A DNA stretch of 5,813 nt from a virus. A program made the translations under genes and the position numbers. Positions 1-5,688 of the stretch are shown piece after piece. Where the stretch lies: the IMG/VR virus record IMGVR_UViG_3300038758_000078, positions 1 to 5,813 of that record. One strand, given 5' to 3'. The notes under the pieces were generated by a model, which was given only the letters and a program-made list of their open reading frames with translations, ran no database searches and was not told the origin of the DNA. Numbering within the stretch: position 1 is the stretch's first letter; every line of letters begins with the position of its first letter.

Positions 1-99
1 CTGAACATCCTCATTCCAACGACGCAAATACATCGAGCCGTTGATACGAGAAATTTCCCAAGCCTGCGCTAGATCACGATTGGTCACAATAAAACCAAC
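1..99. repeat. Left copy of a 99-bp terminal direct repeat, identical to 5715..5813. This is the assembly overlap of a circular genome with a 5714-nt unit length.
   Basis: Read directly: the string ctgaacatcctcattccaacgacgcaaatacatcgagccgttgatacgagaaatttcccaagcctgcgctagatcacgattggtcacaataaaaccaac occurs at 1..99 and at 5715..5813. An ORF runs through the junction in frame. Confidence 0.9.
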
Positions 100-648
100 A
101 CCCAAAGGTTTACCGTCAACGCCGCCTCCGCTCTGCTCATTCGCCACAGCTAAAACGCCACGACCAACTACCTGATACACATTCAGACCTAAGGTAGCCG
201 AAACAATCTTCGTCGGAGCAATTACAACCTTAGTATTAGGCAACACACCGAACTGCCCATCTACTCCAGTCCGCATATGAAACAAACCGCCACCAGCGGT
301 CAGCGTACCACGCATCCAAATCGGACACACGTCAATAACCTCAGCATGAAGGGCACCAACAGTCTGGGGCACTTCAAAACACACATTCACGTCATACTCA
401 AAGAGCTCTATCTTCTCCTCTTCAACCTGAGTTCCCACATGCACTCCAATACCCTTACAGCTATCCACTGGTATACCTACGGCAGGCGTAAGAGATCGAA
501 ACCGATAATATCGCTCAGAAGTCTGTGCAGCATTATCAAACTCCAAGATAGCACCACCAGATCCCGTTGACACCTGCATTAGGTTGGTATTCAACGCCTC
601 AATAGTATCTACCTTAACCACATCTACTTGTCTTGGTCTATTAGCCAT
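1..648 (-). CDS. G: Major spike protein G-like, first 216 codons. The ORF leaves the window at base 1 and continues on the circle at 5714..5688, giving 224 aa in total.
   Basis: Hand translation from the ATG at 648..646 gives MANRPRQVDVVKVDTIEALNTNLMQVSTGSGGAILEFDNAAQ...GKPLGVGFIVTNRDLAQAWEISRINGSMYLRRWNEDVQ, with no stop down to base 1. A GGAG lies 8 nt upstream of the ATG, which is 2 nt after the F stop. The position after F matches phiX174 gene G. The C-terminal VGFIVTN motif resembles phiX174 G VGFMVWSN (from memory). The ORF is missing from the track because the window edge truncates it. Confidence 0.7.
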   Translation of the reverse strand, partial: MANRPRQVDVVKVDTIEALNTNLMQVSTGSGGAILEFDNAAQTSERYYRFRSLTPAVGIPVDSCKGIGVHVGTQVEEEKIELFEYDVNVCFEVPQTVGALHAEVIDVCPIWMRGTLTAGGGLFHMRTGVDGQFGVLPNTKVVIAPTKIVSATLGLNVYQVVGRGVLAVANEQSGGGVDGKPLGVGFIVTNRDLAQAWEISRINGSMYLRRWNEDVQ

Positions 649-650
649 AA

Positions 651-1928
651 CTACATCTCCGTTCCAGCAAATAACGATTTTCCATAACCACCAATATGCC
701 GTAAGCAACGCACATTATTCCTTACCTGATACTGCCAATGGCCAAACTCTGTAGAAGCAAAACCTGAAGAATACTTCTTCGAAGGATAAAGCACTGCCTC
801 TTGCAAAGTCTCCGGCTCATCTCGAAAAAACGGAAAACCGTTCTTATTATCATACCGCCTATCAACAATGTTCGGCTGATACCGCCACTGCTGCCCAGCC
901 GGAATCTTACCCAAACTCACTGTCGAAGTAGAATCCCGAAAACAATCACGCCTTTCCAAATCATAAGGCTTCCGCTTCTCCAACTCTGTAGGATCGCCAG
1001 TCAAATTAGCATAATCCATCGTAGTTCCGAGCCTGCCTACCTGCGCATGCATCTCGCGTTCATGACTCGGGGGGTAACGCAACACAGCAACAGTCCAAAT
1101 AGTACCATGCTCCGGCATTAACTTTCGCGGCACATGATGGCCTACGATCGTCTCTACGCGCCCAGCGACTTCACCTAAATTACCAGACGCTGTGCCATAA
1201 ACATCAAAACCTGACAACCACTTCGAAGAATGACCTAAAACTTCCGGCCGCTGATCCGCATCAGTAGTCGCATAACCACCGAACTTCTTCATCACATCAC
1301 TGTAATAATTCGCAGTCCACTCACGCTGCAACTGAGTCTCATACTCTGCCGCCGCTTGCGCCAACGCTGTCAACTCGAAACTAGCTGCTGAAGCTACTGT
1401 ATCATTCGTTGGATACGATCCAGAATCATGCCCAACATTCCACAACGCAGGCAGAGACGCAGTAAGCCAGCCCCATCTAGCGTTAGAACCAGAACTAGTT
1501 GTTGTGGCGACCGTTCTCTCAGCCAAGCCTTGCCGCTCGGTCCGAAAATACCGATTCCAGATTCTAACATAGCCTTCAATAAGCCAAAGCGGAACGGGCT
1601 GATTTCCGAGCCAGGGGATAGCGTACCAATGATTCCAACCCGCAACCGTCGGGTCGAGTGTCGATAACGTAACGCCGCTCGAATTTCCATCCTTCAGAAA
1701 ATTAATCCAATCACTACCGTATATATGTCGATGCGGCACAAAAAAGCTCACCACATCCGCCTTCACGTCCGTCTGCAAAGGCCGCCGAAAAGGGTTCATC
1801 TTAAAGATGCCCTGCATATCAATCTCAATCGAATCGCCAGCCATCACGGGCAGAACATTAAGCGTCCTAAGCCGGCCGACCATTCCTGTGCCAAAACTCA
1901 AATTTGACAAATCTACAAGCGTTCTCAT
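651..1928 (-). CDS. F: Major capsid protein F (phiX174 type, 425 aa).
   Basis: ATG start and TAG stop. It aligns by eye along its whole length with phiX174 F (426 aa). Examples: PVMAGDSIEIDMQGIFKMNPFRRPL...FFVPHRHIYGSDWINFLKDG vs PVIAGDSFEMDAVGALRLSPLRRGL...FYVPHRHVYGEQWIKFMKDG, FGGYATTDADQRPEV vs FGGKTSYDADNRPLL, VPEHGT, and GFPFFRDEP vs GFPFIQEPP. It has the compact phiX size, not the roughly 500+ aa gokushovirus VP1 size. Confidence 0.97.
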   Translation of the reverse strand: MRTLVDLSNLSFGTGMVGRLRTLNVLPVMAGDSIEIDMQGIFKMNPFRRPLQTDVKADVVSFFVPHRHIYGSDWINFLKDGNSSGVTLSTLDPTVAGWNHWYAIPWLGNQPVPLWLIEGYVRIWNRYFRTERQGLAERTVATTTSSGSNARWGWLTASLPALWNVGHDSGSYPTNDTVASAASFELTALAQAAAEYETQLQREWTANYYSDVMKKFGGYATTDADQRPEVLGHSSKWLSGFDVYGTASGNLGEVAGRVETIVGHHVPRKLMPEHGTIWTVAVLRYPPSHEREMHAQVGRLGTTMDYANLTGDPTELEKRKPYDLERRDCFRDSTSTVSLGKIPAGQQWRYQPNIVDRRYDNKNGFPFFRDEPETLQEAVLYPSKKYSSGFASTEFGHWQYQVRNNVRCLRHIGGYGKSLFAGTEM

Positions 1929-2066
1929 CTAAAAAATCTTGTTAGGCCGTAAGCTCGGCATACTTCTAGGCGCTCTCACAGTACCGACCCGCCGATTCGA
2001 CGACGACCGGACACCACTACCGGAACGGCGGCCTCCACGCCGCCCTCCCTGTCGCTTACCCTTCAC
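1929..2066 (-). CDS. J: Small basic DNA-binding/packaging protein J-like (45 aa, GTG start).
   Basis: Hand translation gives (GTG)M-KGKRQGGRRGGRRSGSGVRSSSNRRVGTVRAPRSMPSLRPNKIF, with 14 Arg/Lys and no acidic residues. The N-terminus resembles phiX174 J MSKGKKRSGARPG. It sits between D and F as in phiX174. A GAAGGG lies 7 nt upstream of the GTG, and a TGA two codons upstream excludes any earlier start. It is below the size cutoff of the ORF track. Confidence 0.8.
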   Translation of the reverse strand: MKGKRQGGRRGGRRSGSGVRSSSNRRVGTVRAPRSMPSLRPNKIF

Positions 2067-2517
2067 TAGTCAACCCTTCTACCTTATTCCGGAAATTCTC
2101 CACAAAAACCGGATTCTGACCATAAGCTGCTACCGTCAAAGCCAGCAACCTCCGAGGCGTAACCACCTCATGGACCGCTGGAGCCTCATTCGCTTCCGTA
2201 CCGCCGGCCATCTCAGTTTGCAATGATAGCTTCTGGCCGCACCAGCTACACGCGACCATATGGTTAATCGGGTGCACAATCAAAGCGATCGTCGCCGCAA
2301 CAACCTCCGCCGGCAAAGGCACAGCAGGCAAAGAAGCCAACTCGGTTCCCGCAGCCAGCACTTGCTCCAAGGCTCTCGTCATACGCGCCCGATCCGTCCC
2401 CGTCCAAGGCACCTGAGACTTCAACCGATCCAAATCCGCCTCGTTCACATTCGCCGTATAAACAGGCAGTGAATCCGTGCACAACCGCATACAATATTCC
2501 AACGTCGCTTTATTCAT
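2056..2517 (-). CDS. D: External scaffolding protein D (153 aa).
   Basis: ATG start. The size matches phiX174 D (152 aa). Alignable blocks include WTGTDRARMTRALE vs WIATDRSRARRCVE and AATIALIVHPINHMVAC vs AAVIAYYVHPVNIQTAC. Its position immediately upstream of J and F matches phiX174. Confidence 0.88.
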   Translation of the reverse strand: MNKATLEYCMRLCTDSLPVYTANVNEADLDRLKSQVPWTGTDRARMTRALEQVLAAGTELASLPAVPLPAEVVAATIALIVHPINHMVACSWCGQKLSLQTEMAGGTEANEAPAVHEVVTPRRLLALTVAAYGQNPVFVENFRNKVEGLTSEG

Positions 2518-2824
2518 AATTTCTCAATACTTTCTCGGACTGTTCAATTACACTTTCGAATTCTCCAACTCCGGAAATCCACTCTTTCAAGCGCATCTGC
2601 AAATCTTGAAACGCCTTCTGGCACTCCAACCGGCTCACGATCTGCGACATTTTAACAACTTGCCTCATCTGGCATAGCTGCGTCAACGCAAAACTCATGC
2701 GTCCTCTATGCAACAAGCCTAAATCAACCAACGTACTCAATAACTGCCATTCCTCCAATTCAATCTCATCCCAAGATTTGACCGACAGCTCGCGACGGCA
2801 GCGCAAAATATTCCTTGAGCTCAT
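2510..2824 (-). CDS. C-like small protein (104 aa from the ATG at 2824). The ORF is open from a GTG at 2887, which would give 125 aa.
   Basis: It lies between A and D, where phiX174 has K and C. It overlaps the A 3' end by at least 59 nt and the D start by 8 nt. The stretch ELEEWQLLSTLV loosely resembles phiX174 C DEEKWLNMLGTFV (from memory). The start codon is uncertain: AGGCGG lies 7 nt before the ATG. Confidence 0.5.
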   Translation of the reverse strand: MSSRNILRCRRELSVKSWDEIELEEWQLLSTLVDLGLLHRGRMSFALTQLCQMRQVVKMSQIVSRLECQKAFQDLQMRLKEWISGVGEFESVIEQSEKVLRNYE

Positions 2825-4142
2825 ACAGCAACCGCCTAGCTTCAGAAATGCCCTCGGAACTCGGGGCCAAGGTCCATTCGCCAACACTCCGAGGCATGGA
2901 ATCCCTTGTCTTCAAAACCGACCGACTTAGGCGGCTGAACAGGGTCTCCGTCCTTGGGACGGTATTGAGGAACCGTGACGCCATGTCCTGCCCTCCAGTA
3001 TGGCTCAACGCTCTCCTGTACATCCTCCGACCCAGCTCCAACTTCGCCACTCGCCGCACCAGCCTCACCTGTGAGAACTCTCTGCTCTTGCTCCACGCCA
3101 CCAGCGCGACCAACCCCTTTTCGCTCGCCTGCTCCACTACCGCCGACAGCTTCTGCATCCCGAACCGTCTCGACATCTTTACTCGCCATGCTTTCCGTTT
3201 CCATTCTTCACCTTTCTGCTTAATCAGGTATTTTACCAGATAATTAGCCAAGCGCCCACCTGACGACGACACCGGCACAATCTTCTCTTCTCCGTCCACT
3301 ACTTCCTTCCGACTTGGCCAACGCCAACCCAACTCCGAATACGCATCACCAGCCCAACGCACCGCGATCGGGCTACTGGTCCCATACGGCCACCATCTAC
3401 GCAAAGCGTCAATCTCTCTCCGAACTCCACCGGCAAACGGATTCATATCCTGACAACCAGCCGGCAAATGAGACATCACTACAACACAATGAAAATGCAA
3501 TCGACCAGTTTCACCTCCCTCTTCAGGAATGCAAAAATAGGAAAAATACGCTTCTTCACCTGCTTTCTCAGCCGCTGCCTGCACGTCCTTGCGCCACTTC
3601 TCTTTCTGGATTCTCCACAAATTAGAGCCACGCTTAAAAACCTTAGGCAACCACTCATTATCACACGACAACGAATTGAACACCACAAACCGCTTCTCTC
3701 TCACTGCTTCTGAGATTTCACACAATAACCGTCCGCGATACTCGGCCGCACGACTTGATTCACGCTGCATCGCCAACAACTTCTCCAAATCACGCAAAAC
3801 TTCAACCTTACTGCTGGATCCGAGACCACGCGTCCGACTTCTGACAAACTCCAACGCCGGTTTCACTTCCCGCCGAAGACCTAAATACTCCTGGTCTAAT
3901 GCAATAACGGATTTCTTATCAAGTCGGTTTAATCCACGACGCACTGACGACAAAGCCGCACGACCTTCCAAATGCTCTGAAGCACTCATACCTTGACCTG
4001 GCCGCCTAGGAAACCAGGCACTCAACTTAGCCTCCGCTGCTGACAGCTCATTCACGAGGCGACCAATCTTAGTGCCTAGAAAATAAGACCGACCAATCTT
4101 GATAGAAGCATGCATACCTCTGAAAACCAAATAAATACACAC
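2766..4142 (-). CDS. A: Replication initiation protein A (HUH rolling-circle endonuclease). It is 458 aa from the GTG at 4142, and the first ATG is at 4115.
   Basis: The HUH motif RLHFHCVVV (HFH encoded at 3489..3497) matches phiX174 GRLHFHAVHF. The twin catalytic tyrosines YLVKYLIK (Tyr codons at 3240..3242 and 3228..3230) match phiX174 YVAKYVNK. Further blocks are YFCIPEEGGETG vs YFCVPEYGTANG, WPYGTSSPIAVRW vs WPYGYSMPIAVRY, and RVKMSRRFGMQKL vs RIRMSRNFGMKML. The start is ambiguous: the GTG at 4142 has no SD, and the ATG at 4115 is directly abutted by AGAGGT, which is too close. Confidence 0.95.
   Translation of the reverse strand: MCIYLVFRGMHASIKIGRSYFLGTKIGRLVNELSAAEAKLSAWFPRRPGQGMSASEHLEGRAALSSVRRGLNRLDKKSVIALDQEYLGLRREVKPALEFVRSRTRGLGSSSKVEVLRDLEKLLAMQRESSRAAEYRGRLLCEISEAVREKRFVVFNSLSCDNEWLPKVFKRGSNLWRIQKEKWRKDVQAAAEKAGEEAYFSYFCIPEEGGETGRLHFHCVVVMSHLPAGCQDMNPFAGGVRREIDALRRWWPYGTSSPIAVRWAGDAYSELGWRWPSRKEVVDGEEKIVPVSSSGGRLANYLVKYLIKQKGEEWKRKAWRVKMSRRFGMQKLSAVVEQASEKGLVALVAWSKSREFSQVRLVRRVAKLELGRRMYRRALSHTGGQDMASRFLNTVPRTETLFSRLSRSVLKTRDSMPRSVGEWTLAPSSEGISEARRLLYELKEYFALPSRAVGQILG
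2842..3204 (-). CDS. B: Internal scaffolding protein B-like (120 aa), embedded out of frame in the 3' half of gene A.
   Basis: ATG start with AAGGTG 4 nt upstream. It has the same length (120 aa) and the same gene-within-A arrangement as phiX174 B. The N-terminal part is acidic and Gly/Ala-rich. The C-terminus CWRMDLGPEFRGHF resembles phiX174 B DWRIQPAEFYRF...GYF, the aromatic tail that contacts F. Confidence 0.72.
   Translation of the reverse strand: METESMASKDVETVRDAEAVGGSGAGERKGVGRAGGVEQEQRVLTGEAGAASGEVGAGSEDVQESVEPYWRAGHGVTVPQYRPKDGDPVQPPKSVGFEDKGFHASECWRMDLGPEFRGHF
3891..3926 (-). other. Candidate viral-strand replication origin inside gene A, with the predicted A-protein nick between G3920 and A3919 on the minus strand.
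   Basis: The minus strand reads CGACTTGATAAGAAATCCGTTATTGCATTAGACCAG. The phiX174 origin, as I recall it, is CAACTTG^ATATTAATAACACTATAGACCAC. ACTTGATA and TAGACCA are shared, with 6 extra nt (2 codons) between them. Both lie at an equivalent place in A (ours NRLDKKSVIALDQ, phiX PQLDINNTIDH). Confidence 0.6.
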
Positions 4143-4149
4143 ACAGAAA

Positions 4150-4169
4150 CCAAATCAATTATTGATTGG
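4150..4169. promoter_or_regulatory. AT-rich palindrome between the orf101 stop and the A start.
   Basis: aatcaat-t-attgatt forms perfect 7-bp arms at 4153..4159 and 4161..4167. With one bulged A the pairing extends to cc/gg at 4150..4151 and 4168..4169. It is the only obvious structure in the 34-nt orf101-A spacer. Confidence 0.3.
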
Positions 4170-4176
4170 ATTCGTT

Positions 4177-4482
4177 TCACTCCTCAGTAACTCCAGTAGG
4201 ATCGCCAACGCCACTCTCTTCATCGCCGAACACAACTTCGGCTCCTCGATCCGATGCTCCTTCGCTGACGCTAACACGGCTCCTGTCAAACTCGTGATTT
4301 TCTGTAATTCTGACATAATTCGTAACAATCGTATTAGGCCTATCACGGCCACTAGTATTCAAAATAGCCGACTCAAGCATACCAAGCTTGAAATAATCAG
4401 TCTTCACGGAGCAGCCTTGACTTAGCAGCCCGCAGACGACGCCACATAGCACGCGATTCAATTTCCTTACATCGAACATCAT
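4177..4482 (-). CDS. orf101: predicted small secreted lipoprotein (101 aa, about 78 aa mature), with no phiX174 counterpart.
   Basis: The start is ATGATG, preceded by GAGG with a 6-nt spacer (TTAGAGGAATATTATG). The N-terminus is MMFDVRKLNRVLCGVVCGLLSQGC|SVKTD. It has a basic n-region, an uncharged h-region and LSQG-C24, which satisfies the PROSITE-style lipobox rule [LIVMFWSTAG]2-[LIVMFYSTAGCQ]-[AGS]-C. The mature part is hydrophilic with an acidic tail and Ser at +2. Confidence 0.55.
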   Translation of the reverse strand: MMFDVRKLNRVLCGVVCGLLSQGCSVKTDYFKLGMLESAILNTSGRDRPNTIVTNYVRITENHEFDRSRVSVSEGASDRGAEVVFGDEESGVGDPTGVTEE

Positions 4483-4645
4483 AATATTCCTCTAACAACT
4501 TTCTACACTTTCTCAACGATTTAGTTGCAACCAACGCATTCTCGATAGAATCCAAACTATCATTAATTCCATTAAAATCATCAGATAAATTCACCAATGC
4601 TTCGTTACATCCGGCCACACTCGAAAAGTCAATCTCATATTCCAT
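4397..4645 (-). CDS. orf82: small charge-bipolar protein of unknown function. The track ORF extends to a TTG at 4651 (84 aa).
   Basis: It is the first ORF after the noncoding region. From the ATG at 4645 it reads MEYEIDFSSVAGCNEALVNLSDDFNGINDSLDSIENAL, with 9 acidic and 0 basic residues. It continues as VATKSLRKCRKLLEEYYDVRCKEIESRAMWRRLRAAKSRLLRED, which is strongly basic. No SD is present. It appears helical by eye, and I recognise no family. Confidence 0.45.
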   Translation of the reverse strand: MEYEIDFSSVAGCNEALVNLSDDFNGINDSLDSIENALVATKSLRKCRKLLEEYYDVRCKEIESRAMWRRLRAAKSRLLRED

Positions 4646-4651
4646 AAACAA

Positions 4652-4679
4652 ACAATAACACAGAACAAAAACAAGTCAA
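4652..4679 (-). promoter_or_regulatory. Candidate sigma70-type promoter driving orf82-orf101-A.
   Basis: On the minus strand, TTGACT (4679..4674) is followed by a 16-nt spacer and then TGtTATTGT: an extended -10 TG at 4660..4659 and the hexamer at 4657..4652. A T-run, UP-element-like tract (tttttttgttttttttg) lies immediately upstream. Other weak -35/-10 pairs exist in this T-rich region, so the call is tentative. Confidence 0.35.
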
Positions 4680-4700
4680 CAAAAAAAACAAAAAAATAGA

Positions 4701-4816
4701 ACTGAGCAAAACAACCATAAACAGAGTAAAACAAGTAACAAAATGCCTATAACGAAAAAATAAGAATAGGCAAATAAAAAAGAAACAGAACTAAAGTAAA
4801 CACACTGAGCAAAACA
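4701..4816. repeat. Short dispersed direct repeats in the noncoding region.
   Basis: actgagcaaaaca occurs at 4701..4713 and at 4804..4816. The related gagtaaaaca lies at 4724..4733, 20 nt after the gagcaaaaca core at 4704. Confidence 0.5.
4744..4772 (-). terminator. Weak hairpin plus U-tract (terminator-like) in the H-orf82 noncoding region.
   Basis: tgcctat (4744..4750) pairs with ataggca (4766..4772) across a 15-nt loop. On the minus strand it is followed by TTTTGTTACTTGTTTT. The stem is short and AT-rich and the loop is large. Confidence 0.2.
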
Positions 4817-4837
4817 CATTCGTGTCACTAATATGAT

Positions 4838-4874
4838 GAAGCGCGCGATAAAAGCGTCTACGACGCCGCGCTTC
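4838..4874. other. Two-tier GC-rich hairpin in the noncoding region.
   Basis: The outer stem pairs gaagcgcg (4838..4845) with cgcgcttc (4867..4874). The inner stem pairs gcgtc (4854..4858) with gacgc (4862..4866) across a 3-nt loop, leaving an 8-nt bulge at 4846..4853. Confidence 0.6.
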
Positions 4875-4884
4875 TACTAAACTT

Positions 4885-4911
4885 GGGAGACCCCCAGAAA
4901 GGGGGTCTCTC
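4885..4911 (-). terminator. Strong GC hairpin about 20 nt downstream of the H stop. It may be the post-H transcription terminator and/or an ssDNA structural element.
   Basis: gagaccccc (4887..4895) pairs perfectly with gggggtctc (4901..4909) across a 5-nt loop (agaaa). Outer bases can extend the stem. The trailing sequence on the minus strand is only moderately U-rich (AAGUUUAGUAG), as with the leaky phiX174 terminators. Confidence 0.5.
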
Positions 4912-4932
4912 CAGCTAGACACTCTAGACTCC

Positions 4933-5688
4933 TCAACGTCCTGGGGATGGAATCATGCCAGGAATCTTAGAGGTAGCCTTTTCGTAGGACTTAGATAAAC
5001 GATGCATAGAATCCGTGAACTCCAGCAACGCCTTGTAGATCGACAGAGCTCGATCTGAAGAAACATCCGCATGCTTTCGCAACAACGCTCCAATCTGCTC
5101 GGGCGTAACAGACCCGGACCGTTTCATAAAATTCGCGAAACCATTAACCAAATTGCGAGTCTGAGCATACGTCAAATCAGCTTCCGCTAACTCCTTCGCA
5201 AACTTCGCTGACTCTTCGGAACGCGGTAAATTCGTCTCCTGAATAGCCGCTTGCGCATTCTGAAAACGTGCACTTGCTTGATTCGATTGCACCTTCGAAG
5301 CCATCTCGCCTCGAGACGCTTCCGATGTCCTATCCGCTGAATACTTCTGAGCATCTGCACCTATACGAGCAATCTTCTCTGAATTACGAGCCTGCAACCG
5401 AGCAATACGATACTGATCTGAAACACCAGCACTCTGACCGCCGGCAGAGCCGGCAGCACCTCGTAAACGCTCATGTGCCGACGTGCCAGGGTACGCACGA
5501 TCCATATAGTCTTTCTGAGCCCTGCCGGCAAACTTACCTCCAACATAAGCATTAACTCCGGCACCAGGGATCTCGGCAAGAGCATCCTTGATACCTTCAC
5601 TAGTCCTTGTCATTAAATTCTGCGTGGGGGCAGCATCCGTGCCGCCCCCAAACGCACCACTTAACAGCTTACCAAATGCACCAAACAT
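4933..5688 (-). CDS. H: DNA pilot (minor spike) protein H (251 aa).
   Basis: The ATG at 5688 overlaps the G-like stop (TAATG). The Gly-rich N-terminus MFGAFGKLLSGAFGGG resembles phiX174 MFGAIAGGIASALAGG. KDYMDRAYPGTSAHERL resembles RDYLAAAFPELNAWERA. A central Gln/Ala-rich helical region matches the phiX174 H coiled-coil type. It is the last gene before the noncoding region, as in phiX174. Confidence 0.85.
   Translation of the reverse strand: MFGAFGKLLSGAFGGGTDAAPTQNLMTRTSEGIKDALAEIPGAGVNAYVGGKFAGRAQKDYMDRAYPGTSAHERLRGAAGSAGGQSAGVSDQYRIARLQARNSEKIARIGADAQKYSADRTSEASRGEMASKVQSNQASARFQNAQAAIQETNLPRSEESAKFAKELAEADLTYAQTRNLVNGFANFMKRSGSVTPEQIGALLRKHADVSSDRALSIYKALLEFTDSMHRLSKSYEKATSKIPGMIPSPGR

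What the first reader, a model, noticed from the sequence alone, without database searches (positions are those of the whole stretch)
2056..2517. No E-like lysis gene inside D, so the lysis function is unassigned
In phiX174 the lysis protein E, which has an N-terminal transmembrane helix, is overprinted on D. Here one alternative frame of D is broken by frequent stops. The other (2264..2494, TTG start) gives a Gly/Ala/Cys/Asp-rich product with no convincing transmembrane helix. The virus must therefore lyse its host by other means. Weak candidates fall into two groups.
- orf101 (4177..4482).
- Two embedded ORFs with hydrophobic segments. One is 3479..3688 in A (MSGCLRFLSVALICG followed by a very basic stretch, an E-like architecture, but with no SD). 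The other is 5361..5600 in H (the internal ATG is preceded by GAAGGT at 7 nt).
A T/G-rich coding strand produces hydrophobic off-frame ORFs by chance, so the two embedded ORFs are weak.
Basis: inference. Interest (0 to 1): 0.6.

Follow-up and report, generated by a model that had tools for sequence, protein, structure and literature searches.

The report
No phiX-type lysis gene in D
This small phiX174-like phage really does lack the lysis gene that phiX174 hides inside its scaffold gene D, as do most of its distant relatives, so how it bursts its host is still open; a small lipoprotein gene and a few tiny membrane-peptide frames are untested candidates.

Summary
The window is a complete 5714-nt circular microvirus with genes A, B, C, D, J, F, G and H on the minus strand.

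- **D carries no E-like gene.** D (2056..2517) is a true gpD homologue. Its +1 frame has 9 stops. Its +2 frame is open for 81 codons but has no membrane helix, and it is interrupted in the nearest relative.
- **Other tests agree.** Synonymous sites of D codons 46-152 evolve freely. No frame of the genome matches the Pfam E family.
- **E is rare outside the coliphage clade.** In 80 D-bearing genomes, E occurs only in the classical coliphages and one relative whose D is 56% identical to phiX174 D. Published work already lists E as absent from the cultured Vibrio phage PG19, so this is a new member of a known situation.
The one in A is broken in the relative. The one in H is no longer than synonymous shuffles give.
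- **The unassigned coding capacity lies between H and A.** It holds orf82, orf101 and hydrophobic mini-ORFs. orf101 is a real gene: it passes the lipobox rule and has 8 synonymous against 1 non-synonymous change after the Cys. The mini-ORFs are expected by chance in T-rich DNA.

None of these candidates is shown to cause lysis. An earlier follow-up in this scan had already flagged orf101.

The parts
2056..2517 (-). Gene D, the external scaffolding protein (153 aa). It codes in one frame only from about codon 46 onward.
   Evidence: Pfam gpD at 7.6e-11 and PHROG 1386 at 5.2e-21. 409 homologues at E<=1e-3, the best 62% identical. Synonymous third-position identity to L014 is 0.43 in codons 46-152.
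2264..2494 (-). ORF in the +2 frame of D (TTG start, 76 aa), rich in Gly, Ala, Cys and Asp, with no membrane helix. Probably not a gene.
   Evidence: 81 open codons: P=0.06 as the longest stretch anywhere and 0 of 200 shuffles at this position. Best hydropathy is 1.52. The frame has a stop after 46 codons in L014. No Pfam family.
2136..2279 (-). ORF in the +1 frame of D (TTG start, 47 aa), very basic, with no hydrophobic segment. This is the frame that E uses in phiX174.
   Evidence: The frame has 9 stops and its longest stretch has P=0.19. It is truncated in L014. No Pfam family.
4177..4482 (-). orf101, a predicted prolipoprotein (signal peptide residues 1-23, Cys24) with an acidic mature part. 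A real gene of unknown role.
   Evidence: GAGG lies 6 nt before the ATG. It passes the PROSITE-type lipobox rule. Residues 24-43 differ from L014 by 8 synonymous changes and 1 non-synonymous change, and one synonymous change is a Ser codon-family switch at residue 25, upstream of the alternative GTG start. No Pfam, NCBIfam or PHROG family. No Lysis_col match.
4397..4645 (-). orf82, the first gene after the promoter. It is soluble, with an acidic N-terminal half and a basic C-terminal half. Its last 86 nt overlap the orf101 signal peptide.
   Evidence: ORF. A positional counterpart of 78 aa exists in L014, sharing only the C-terminal residues. No family.
4676..4819 (-). Hydrophobic 47-aa ORF in the T-rich spacer after H. 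A weak candidate for a membrane peptide.
   Evidence: The ATG and the first 8 codons are identical in L014, where AGGAG precedes the ATG. The window has no Shine-Dalgarno sequence. Indels of 16 and 5 nt break the frame. A membrane-type ORF arises in 79% of shuffles of the spacer, or 36% with ATG starts only.
4076..4180 (-). Hydrophobic 34-aa ORF (GTG start) across the orf101 stop and the A start. A weak candidate.
   Evidence: A similar 45-aa hydrophobic ORF lies at the same junction in L014. No family.
5361..5600 (-). At chance level.
   Evidence: 82 open codons against a shuffle mean of 111, P=0.75. A membrane-type ORF appears in 28% of shuffles. Synonymous sites here are no more conserved than in the rest of H.
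3479..3688 (-). Rejected.
   Evidence: P=0.66. It fails the membrane-segment criterion. The frame has three stops in L014.
2842..3204 (-). Gene B, the internal scaffolding protein (120 aa, +2 frame of A). It serves as the positive control for detecting overprinted genes.
   Evidence: 121 open codons, P=0.007 in the window and 0 of 300 shuffles in L014. 42% identical over 120 aa in L014. Synonymous identity of A rises to 0.7-0.86 across the overlap.
4652..4679 (-). Promoter-like site (TTGACT, 16 nt, TG-TATTGT) in front of orf82.
   Evidence: Both hexamers are conserved in L014.
4838..4911 (-). Two hairpins after the H stop, without a T tail.
   Evidence: The stems are kept in L014 through compensatory changes. 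No intrinsic terminator was called.
1..648 (-). Gene G, the spike protein. It runs across the end of the record.
   Evidence: The AlphaFold2 model is all beta-strand (pTM 0.67). The best structural matches are the G proteins of phiX174, alpha3 and PJNS001 (E 1.3e-4 to 4.6e-4). It is therefore not a hidden wall-degrading enzyme.

Best explanation
Shown. Gene D of this virus encodes only the external scaffolding protein. There is no E-type overprinted gene in it and no relative of E anywhere in the genome. E is a late invention of the coliphage branch, the lineages whose D is at least about 56% identical to phiX174 D. This virus, at 33%, branched off before E arose. All eight large genes (A, B, C, D, J, F, G, H) are accounted for as replication or virion genes, and none carries a wall-degrading domain.

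Inferred. Lysis should therefore depend on a different, non-homologous small protein, as in the single-gene lysis systems of ssRNA phages, where the lysis gene moves and is reinvented between lineages. The only lineage-specific coding capacity lies between H and A (4076..4932), so the lysis gene is most likely there.

Within that block, orf101 is the one candidate with evidence of being a real, selected, envelope-targeted gene. It is predicted to be exported, lipid-modified at Cys24 and, with Ser at +2, sent to the outer membrane. My odds are as follows.
- No E in D: about 0.9.
- Lysis gene lies in the H-to-A block: about 0.5.
- orf101 itself is the lysis effector: about 0.2.
For: No E in D.
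- Stops and hydropathy of both alternative frames, with phiX174 as a positive control.
- No Microvir_lysis match in the embedded ORFs or in six frames of the genome, whereas phiX174 E scores 1.8e-22.
- Synonymous sites of D codons 46-152 are at baseline (0.43), while the A/B overlap rises to 0.7-0.86.
- The nearest relative L014 (D 62% identical) has no conserved embedded ORF.

Distribution of E.
- 19 of 20 classical genomes carry E, and so does L074 (D 56% identical).
- The E frame stops after 18 codons in L011 and PG19, and after 6 codons in L008.
- 41 of 60 non-classical genomes have no membrane-type ORF in D.
- PMC9431446 lists gpE as absent from the cultured phage PG19.

Large genes are accounted for.

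orf101 is a real gene: synonymous-versus-non-synonymous pattern, lipobox rule and Shine-Dalgarno sequence.

Small envelope-targeted genes recur in relatives that lack E.
- Free-standing textbook lipoprotein ORFs occur in L006, L007, L008, L036 and L037.
- L009 has one in the same slot upstream of A, with a similar cleavage region.
- A family of about 30-aa membrane peptides lies right after H in L068, L079 and L085. L010/L082, L081 and L011 carry other small membrane-peptide ORFs in the same slot, whose homology to that family is not shown.
Against: - Nothing links any candidate to lysis. All experimentally known single-gene lysis proteins are cytoplasmic or integral-membrane proteins, not lipoproteins (my knowledge and the abstracts).
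- orf101 has no Lysis_col match, no amphipathic helix and a low-confidence Atlas model. Its homologue in L014 has no clear start codon, and its hydrophobic leader could be a by-product of the Arg/Leu codons of orf82.
- Lipoprotein ORFs occur in only about 7 of 80 genomes. The lipobox pattern also fires on antisense strands (6-7 hits) and on shuffles (0.26 per genome).
- In ssRNA phages most ORFs with a membrane domain had no lytic effect (178 of 293 candidates, PMC7693330).
- The first 30-45 codons of D do show excess synonymous conservation (12 of 13 sites, P=3e-4; 16 of 22, P=0.005). This coincides with the 5' part of the +2 ORF and is unexplained.
Confidence: 0.6

Rival explanations
1. orf101 is a real lipoprotein but acts in superinfection exclusion or receptor masking, as the Llp lipoprotein of phage T5 or the Cor protein of some lambdoid phages do. 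The lysis gene would then be something else.
For: It is a small exported lipoprotein with Ser at +2, which predicts the outer membrane. It sits in the early operon, behind the promoter at 4652..4679 and ahead of A, which suits an early exclusion function better than late lysis. Its mature part evolves fast beyond residue 43 (13 of 15 codons non-synonymous), as expected for a protein that tracks a host surface molecule. That known phage lipoproteins of this size are mostly exclusion factors or spanins is from my own knowledge.
Against: No sequence or profile similarity to any such family. The receptor of this virus is unknown.
Confidence: 0.3
2. The lysis protein is a small membrane peptide encoded in the T-rich DNA of the H-to-A block. 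It would be either the 47-aa ORF 4676..4819 or the 34-aa ORF 4076..4180. It would be translated at a low level from read-through late transcripts and would work like E or LysM, by blocking a membrane step of wall synthesis.
For: The ATG and first 8 codons of 4676..4819 are identical in L014, where a good AGGAG precedes them. No intrinsic terminator separates it from H. Other relatives lacking E carry small membrane-peptide genes right after H, some coupled to the H stop (L010, L079, L011). L014 has a similar hydrophobic ORF at the orf101/A junction.
Against: Such ORFs arise in 79% of shuffles of the spacer. The window copy has no Shine-Dalgarno sequence. Indels of 16 and 5 nt shift the frame after about 19 codons, and most changes in codons 9-19 are non-synonymous. 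The fully conserved 23 nt fits a DNA or RNA signal as well as it fits a coding sequence. alpha3-type coliphages, which have E, also carry conserved hydrophobic mini-ORFs in their H-A spacer.
Confidence: 0.15
3. Lysis is caused by a soluble protein without a membrane segment. This could be orf82, or a second activity of a virion or replication protein, as with the Qbeta maturation protein that blocks MurA.
For: orf82 is lineage-specific, conserved in position in L014 and has no assigned function. Functional ssRNA-phage lysis genes without a predicted membrane domain exist (PMC7693330).
Against: There is no positive evidence. orf82 is almost unalignable between the window and L014, and it heads the early operon.
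Confidence: 0.12
4. One of the first reader's embedded ORFs is the lysis gene: the +1 frame of H (5361..5600) or the +1 frame of A (3479..3688).
For: The H-embedded frame is open and hydrophobic at the same place in L014 (47 aa from an ATG). Several Shine-Dalgarno-like motifs precede possible starts.
Against: Both lie within the chance distribution (P=0.75 and 0.66; a membrane-type ORF in 28% of H shuffles). The A-embedded frame is broken in L014. The excess synonymous conservation in H is not localised to the ORF.
Confidence: 0.06
5. The +2 ORF inside D (2264..2494) is a real overprinted gene after all, of a kind unlike E.
For: Its 81-codon open stretch was not reached in 200 position-specific shuffles. 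Synonymous sites of D codons 1-30 are 12 of 13 identical to L014 (P=3e-4). The TTG start is conserved in L014.
Against: It has no membrane segment. It is open for only 46 codons in L014 (P=0.23). No Shine-Dalgarno sequence is present. Across 60 non-classical genomes there is no excess of open +2 frames at the 5' end of D (4 with P<=0.05). Constraint at the 5' end of a very highly expressed gene has other common causes.
Confidence: 0.06

Closest known systems
phiX174 protein E (Pfam PF04517, Microvir_lysis), an MraY inhibitor overprinted on D
   Same: The genome architecture is the same around it: C, D, J, F, G and H in order, with B nested in A. D is homologous.
   Different: No open +1 frame, no N-terminal membrane helix and no profile match. 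The region of D that carries E in phiX174 evolves freely at synonymous sites here.
Vibrio phage vB_VpaM_PG19 and the Eel River basin pequenoviruses (D-bearing microviruses outside the coliphage clade; suborder I of PMC9239249)
   Same: They carry D, F, H, A and B but have no annotated E. The PG19 paper lists gpE as absent (PMC9431446). F of the window is about 37% identical to theirs.
   Different: The window and L014 form their own deep branch and carry orf82 and orf101 between H and A. PG19 has a 60-aa unknown ORF in that slot with no lipobox. PG19 still shows an unusually long +1 ORF in D (76 aa, P=0.01).
Single-gene lysis proteins of ssRNA phages (Chamakura et al. 2020, PMC7693330)
   Same: They are small, fast-evolving, often embedded genes that change position between related genomes. 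This is the model I infer for the D-bearing microviruses.
   Different: Those were tested by expression and nothing here was. None of them is described as a lipoprotein (the words lipoprotein and lipobox are absent from that paper).
Colicin lysis / bacteriocin release proteins (Pfam PF02402, Lysis_col)
   Same: They are small lipoproteins with a short mature part that cause quasi-lysis. An earlier follow-up in this scan named them as the closest analogue of orf101.
   Different: No profile match in any frame or for the protein. The mature part is 78 aa rather than about 28-35 aa.
Phage exclusion lipoproteins and o-spanins (T5 Llp, Cor, lambda Rz1)
   Same: They are small outer-membrane lipoproteins encoded by phages. 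The L014 homologue has a proline-rich stretch, as Rz1 does.
   Different: No sequence similarity was found. No partner i-spanin is present, and no endolysin or holin for a spanin to work with.

Membership tests
phiX174 E lysis protein (Pfam PF04517) | Open reading frame of about 75-100 codons in the +1 frame of D | tested here: not met
   The +1 frame has 9 stops and its longest stretch is 47 codons. phiX174 gives 113 codons with the same script.
phiX174 E lysis protein (Pfam PF04517) | N-terminal transmembrane helix | tested here: not met
   No ORF of at least 30 aa in D has an 18-residue segment with hydropathy of at least 1.7 and at most one charge. This was tested by hydropathy only.
phiX174 E lysis protein (Pfam PF04517) | Profile match to Microvir_lysis | tested here: not met
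   No match for the embedded ORFs or in six frames of the genome at E<=10. The phiX174 E control scores 1.8e-22.
phiX174 E lysis protein (Pfam PF04517) | Lysis on expression, dependent on MraY and SlyD | not testable with these tools
   This needs expression in a host.
External scaffolding protein D (Pfam PF02925) | Profile match above the gathering score, at the C-D-J-F position | tested here: met
   42.6 bits against a cut-off of 25. PHROG 1386 at 5.2e-21. Gene order.
Suborder I / Family 1 microviruses (PMC9239249) | Both an external scaffolding protein and a separate spike protein G are present | tested here: met
   D as above. The model of the G-slot protein matches the G proteins of phiX174, alpha3 and PJNS001.
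Bacterial lipoprotein (PROSITE PS51257-type rule), for orf101 | Lys or Arg in the first 7 residues, an uncharged hydrophobic stretch, a lipobox, and Cys at position 15-35 | tested here: met
   Arg6 and Lys7, then the hydrophobic stretch, then LSQG followed by Cys24. The L014 homologue keeps the Cys and the hydrophobic stretch but fails position -3 and has no clear start codon.
Bacterial lipoprotein (PROSITE PS51257-type rule), for orf101 | Lipid modification and cleavage by signal peptidase II | not testable with these tools
   This needs globomycin sensitivity and lipid labelling.
Colicin lysis protein (Pfam PF02402) | Profile match | tested here: not met
   No match for orf101 at E<=10 or in six frames of the genome.

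The most novel reading that the evidence does not exclude
orf101, and the unrelated small lipoprotein genes found in six other D-bearing microvirus genomes without an intact E, are a new class of single-gene lysis effector. It would act from the periplasmic face of the envelope, not from the cytoplasmic membrane. These phages would then have replaced E more than once with lipid-anchored peptides.
Probability: 0.15. Interest if true: 0.8.

Novelty: new member of a known kind. Interest (0 to 1): 0.35.

Why it matters
How microviruses other than the phiX174 group lyse their hosts is a long-standing gap. E is the only microvirus lysis protein with a known target, and it is a model protein antibiotic.

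This window adds no new mechanism. With its relatives it does three useful things.
- It fixes the limits of E: the coliphage clade plus one lineage with D 56% identical to phiX174 D.
- It shows that most D-bearing microviruses have nothing comparable in D.
- It narrows the search in this lineage to an 860-nt block with a handful of clonable candidates.

If one of them lyses cells, it would give a new inhibitor of envelope biogenesis. It would also show that lysis genes turn over in ssDNA phages as they do in ssRNA phages.

Tried and rejected
Searches for relatives.
- Nucleotide and D-protein searches of the INPHARED phage collection found nothing.
- Searches of viral contigs with single D or F proteins found no relatives.
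- The D alignments were too variable for the locus finder.
- A back-translated orf101 motif and an 18-nt stretch of the 23-nt conserved spacer motif gave no viral contigs.
- The metagenome scan with that 18-mer returned only further copies of the L014 virus plus chance hits. Comparative power therefore rests on one lineage about 70% identical in nucleotides.
- The scan of bacterial genomes returned only phiX174 sequencing-control contamination, so it gave no host.

orf101.
- It has no homologue in the 5.8-billion-protein search other than itself, called as a 76-aa product from the GTG start.
- The Atlas look-alikes rest on a model with pLDDT 0.35 and are meaningless.
- No amphipathic helix in the conserved segment, so a membrane-disrupting peptide is rejected.

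Other ideas rejected.
- A general enrichment of lipoprotein ORFs in D-bearing genomes lacking an intact E is not established. A stricter pattern finds 4 free-standing cases in 80 genomes, and it rejects orf101 itself and the L007 ORF. The antisense control gives 6.
- Read-through of the C stop into the +2 frame of D: the stop is TAA followed by A, and it sits at a different codon in L014.
- The G-slot protein as a hidden lysin: it folds like G.
It was redone from the loci.

Full report
**What the window is.** The 5813 bases are a complete IMG/VR virus record with a 99-nt terminal repeat, so the circle is 5714 nt. All genes lie on the minus strand.
- A is 2766..4115 (PHROG 713 at 2.2e-51).
- B is nested in A at 2842..3204.
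- C is 2510..2821.
- D is 2056..2517.
- J is 1929..2066 (45 aa, basic).
- F is 651..1928.
- G runs from 648 across the record end.
- H is 4933..5688.

These assignments rest. The G-slot protein has no sequence family. Its AlphaFold2 model is all beta-strand (pTM 0.67), and its best structural matches are the G proteins of phiX174, alpha3 and PJNS001. The virus is far from every named relative: F is about 37% identical to the Vibrio phages, the pequenoviruses and G4 alike, and D is 33% identical to phiX174 D.

**Relatives used.** An exhaustive profile search with D found 409 homologues, the closest 62% identical. Its contig, L014 (5520 nt), is 67-77% identical to the window in nucleotides and has the same gene order. 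L015, L029 and L033 are copies of the same virus. Ten more genomes came from F homologues, five named records came from GenBank, and 66 came from IMG/VR through an F alignment. Together these give 80 genomes that all encode D.

**The observation.**
- The +1 frame of D has 9 stops. Its longest open stretch is 47 codons (P=0.19 against synonymous-codon shuffles).
Its product has no segment that qualifies as a membrane helix.
- With the same script, phiX174 gives a 113-codon +1 frame (P=0.012) with a strongly hydrophobic segment.
- In L014 the +2 frame has a stop after 46 codons and the +1 ORFs are not conserved.
- Third-position identity between the window and L014, at codons that keep the same amino acid, is 0.43 for D codons 46-152. 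This is the background level. It rises to 0.7-0.86 where B overlaps A.
- Pfam's E family is matched by phiX174 E at 1.8e-22. It is not matched by the embedded ORFs or by any of the six frames of the genome.

**One loose end in D.** At D codons 1-30, 12 of 13 comparable third positions are identical to L014 (P=3e-4). At codons 1-45 the count is 16 of 22 (P=0.005). This coincides with the 5' part of the +2 ORF, whose length at that position was not reached in 200 shuffles. The frame is short in L014, has no Shine-Dalgarno sequence and no membrane segment. Across the 60 non-classical genomes there is no excess of open +2 frames at the 5' end of D. I treat it as unexplained nucleotide-level constraint in a highly expressed gene, and give about 6% to a real gene there.

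**How general is the absence of E?**
- In the 80-genome survey, 19 of the 20 genomes whose D is at least 70% identical to phiX174 D carry E. The exception is a phiX174 copy with a broken E.
- A clear E homologue also occurs in L074 (D 56% identical).
- In L011 and PG19 the homologous frame starts with the same Met but stops after 18 codons. In L008 it stops after 6 codons.
- Among the 60 non-classical genomes, 19 have some membrane-type ORF in the +1 frame of D, against 14.2 expected from shuffles. Seven are individually unusual at P<=0.05.
- The other 41 genomes have none. They include the window, where only 4% of shuffles produce one.

The PG19 paper already lists gpE as absent (PMC9431446). 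Kirchberger et al. note that overprinted genes outside the Bullavirinae cannot be verified by computation (PMC9239249). The window is therefore another member of a known situation.

The test that recovers B does not support either ORF. For B it gives 121 codons with P=0.007 in the window and 0 of 300 shuffles in L014.
- The A-embedded frame is open for 73 codons (P=0.66). It has three stops in L014 and does not meet my membrane criterion.
- The H-embedded frame is open for 82 codons, where shuffles average 111 (P=0.75). A membrane-type ORF appears there in 28% of shuffles.

I would drop the A-embedded one and keep the H-embedded one at a few per cent.

**The H-to-A block.**
- After the H stop come two hairpins, kept in L014 through compensatory changes.
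- Next is a T-rich spacer (49% T).
- Then comes a conserved promoter-like site (TTGACT, 16 nt, TG-TATTGT), followed by orf82, orf101 and A.
Its ATG and first 8 codons (MCFAQCVY) are identical in L014, where AGGAG precedes them.
- However, the window lacks a Shine-Dalgarno sequence, and indels of 16 and 5 nt shift the frame. A membrane-type ORF arises in 79% of shuffles of the spacer.
- A 34-aa hydrophobic ORF spans the orf101/A junction (4076..4180) and has a look-alike in L014.

**orf101.**
- GAGG lies 6 nt before its ATG.
- It meets the PROSITE-type lipoprotein rule, with Cys24.
- Similarity to L014 begins exactly at that Cys. Over residues 24-43 (CSVKTDYFKLGMLESA and four more) there are 8 synonymous differences and 1 non-synonymous difference. 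Two are Ser codon-family switches, and one of these lies upstream of the GTG that gene callers prefer.
- The next 15 codons carry 13 non-synonymous changes.

So the gene is real and the Cys is probably part of the protein.

Its role is open.
- It has no family, no Lysis_col match, no amphipathic helix and an acidic mature part.
- The L014 copy has no convincing start codon.
- The hydrophobic leader could be a by-product of the Arg/Leu codons of orf82 in the other frame.
- An earlier follow-up in this scan (e1-3274333) called the gene strongly conserved. I can confirm conservation only in the L014 lineage.

**Small envelope-targeted genes in relatives that lack an intact E.**
- Textbook small lipoprotein ORFs fill gaps between genes in L006, L007, L008, L036 and L037. 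L009 has one in the same slot upstream of A, with a similar cleavage region.
- A family of about 30-aa membrane peptides lies directly after H in L068, L079 and L085. L010/L082, L081 and L011 have other small membrane-peptide ORFs in the same slot, and I have not shown that these are homologous to that family.
- The pattern fits a lysis function that is reinvented and relocated between lineages, as in ssRNA phages (PMC7693330).
- It is not proof. Lipoprotein ORFs occur in only about 7 of 80 genomes. The pattern also fires on antisense strands and on shuffles. alpha3-type coliphages, which have E, also carry conserved hydrophobic mini-ORFs in their unannotated H-A spacer.

**Verdict.** The negative finding is sound and well controlled. 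The inference that lysis uses another gene is reasonable, and the gene is not identified. My best guess places it in the H-to-A block (about 0.5). There, orf101 is the best-supported gene but only about 0.2 likely to be the lysis effector; an exclusion role is at least as likely. The finding is ordinary for this part of the family. Its value lies in a short, testable candidate list and in the mapped limits of E.

Noticed in passing
window 2383..2517 (D codons 1-45): Excess synonymous conservation against L014: 12 of 13 third positions are identical in codons 1-30 (P=3e-4) and 16 of 22 in codons 1-45 (P=0.005). The rest of D is at 0.43. The cause is unknown.
   Followed up: partly
L035 (Vibrio phage vB_VpaM_PG19, OM055665.1), inside D 1771..2223: This cultured phage is reported to lack E, yet it has a 76-codon ORF in the +1 frame of D with a hydrophobic C-terminal part (P=0.01 against shuffles). 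The stretch homologous to the E start is cut after 18 codons. Six other non-classical genomes also have unusually long +1 membrane-type ORFs in D: L004, L036, L066, L074, L081 and L102.
   Followed up: partly
L046, L052, L056-L058 and L061-L063 (alpha3-type coliphages); L191 = NC_007824.1, bases 1..759: The roughly 760-nt H-to-A spacer has no annotated feature in ID62. Across the alpha3-type genomes it holds a conserved 28-30-aa membrane-peptide ORF preceded by GGAG, and a conserved 41-aa hydrophobic ORF.
   Followed up: no
L008 3687..3863: In a genome whose D is 60% identical to phiX174 D but whose E frame is broken, the slot between D and F that normally holds J carries a 58-aa textbook lipoprotein gene with Cys15.
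   Followed up: no
L079, L085 and L068 (right after H): A family of about 30-aa single-helix peptides shares a short Cys- and Trp-containing hydrophobic core. Some are start-coupled to the H stop.
   Followed up: partly
window 4838..4932 and 4797..4819: The two hairpins after H keep their stems in L014 through compensatory changes. The 23 nt that begin at the ATG of the spacer ORF are 100% identical between genomes that are about 70% identical overall. 'GTTTTGCTCAGT' occurs twice in the window spacer.
   Followed up: partly
window 3890..3980 and 3620..3710 (A codons 46-75 and 136-165): Two windows of raised synonymous identity in A (0.76 and 0.67-0.77). The second is unexplained; no alternative frame is open there in L014.
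   Followed up: partly
L111-L190 (bacterial genome assemblies): All 80 best matches in the bacterial genome collection are contigs of about 5.4 kb with the same match to F (35% identity, residues 6-412), under very diverse organism names. The pattern is that of phiX174 sequencing-control contamination.
   Followed up: no
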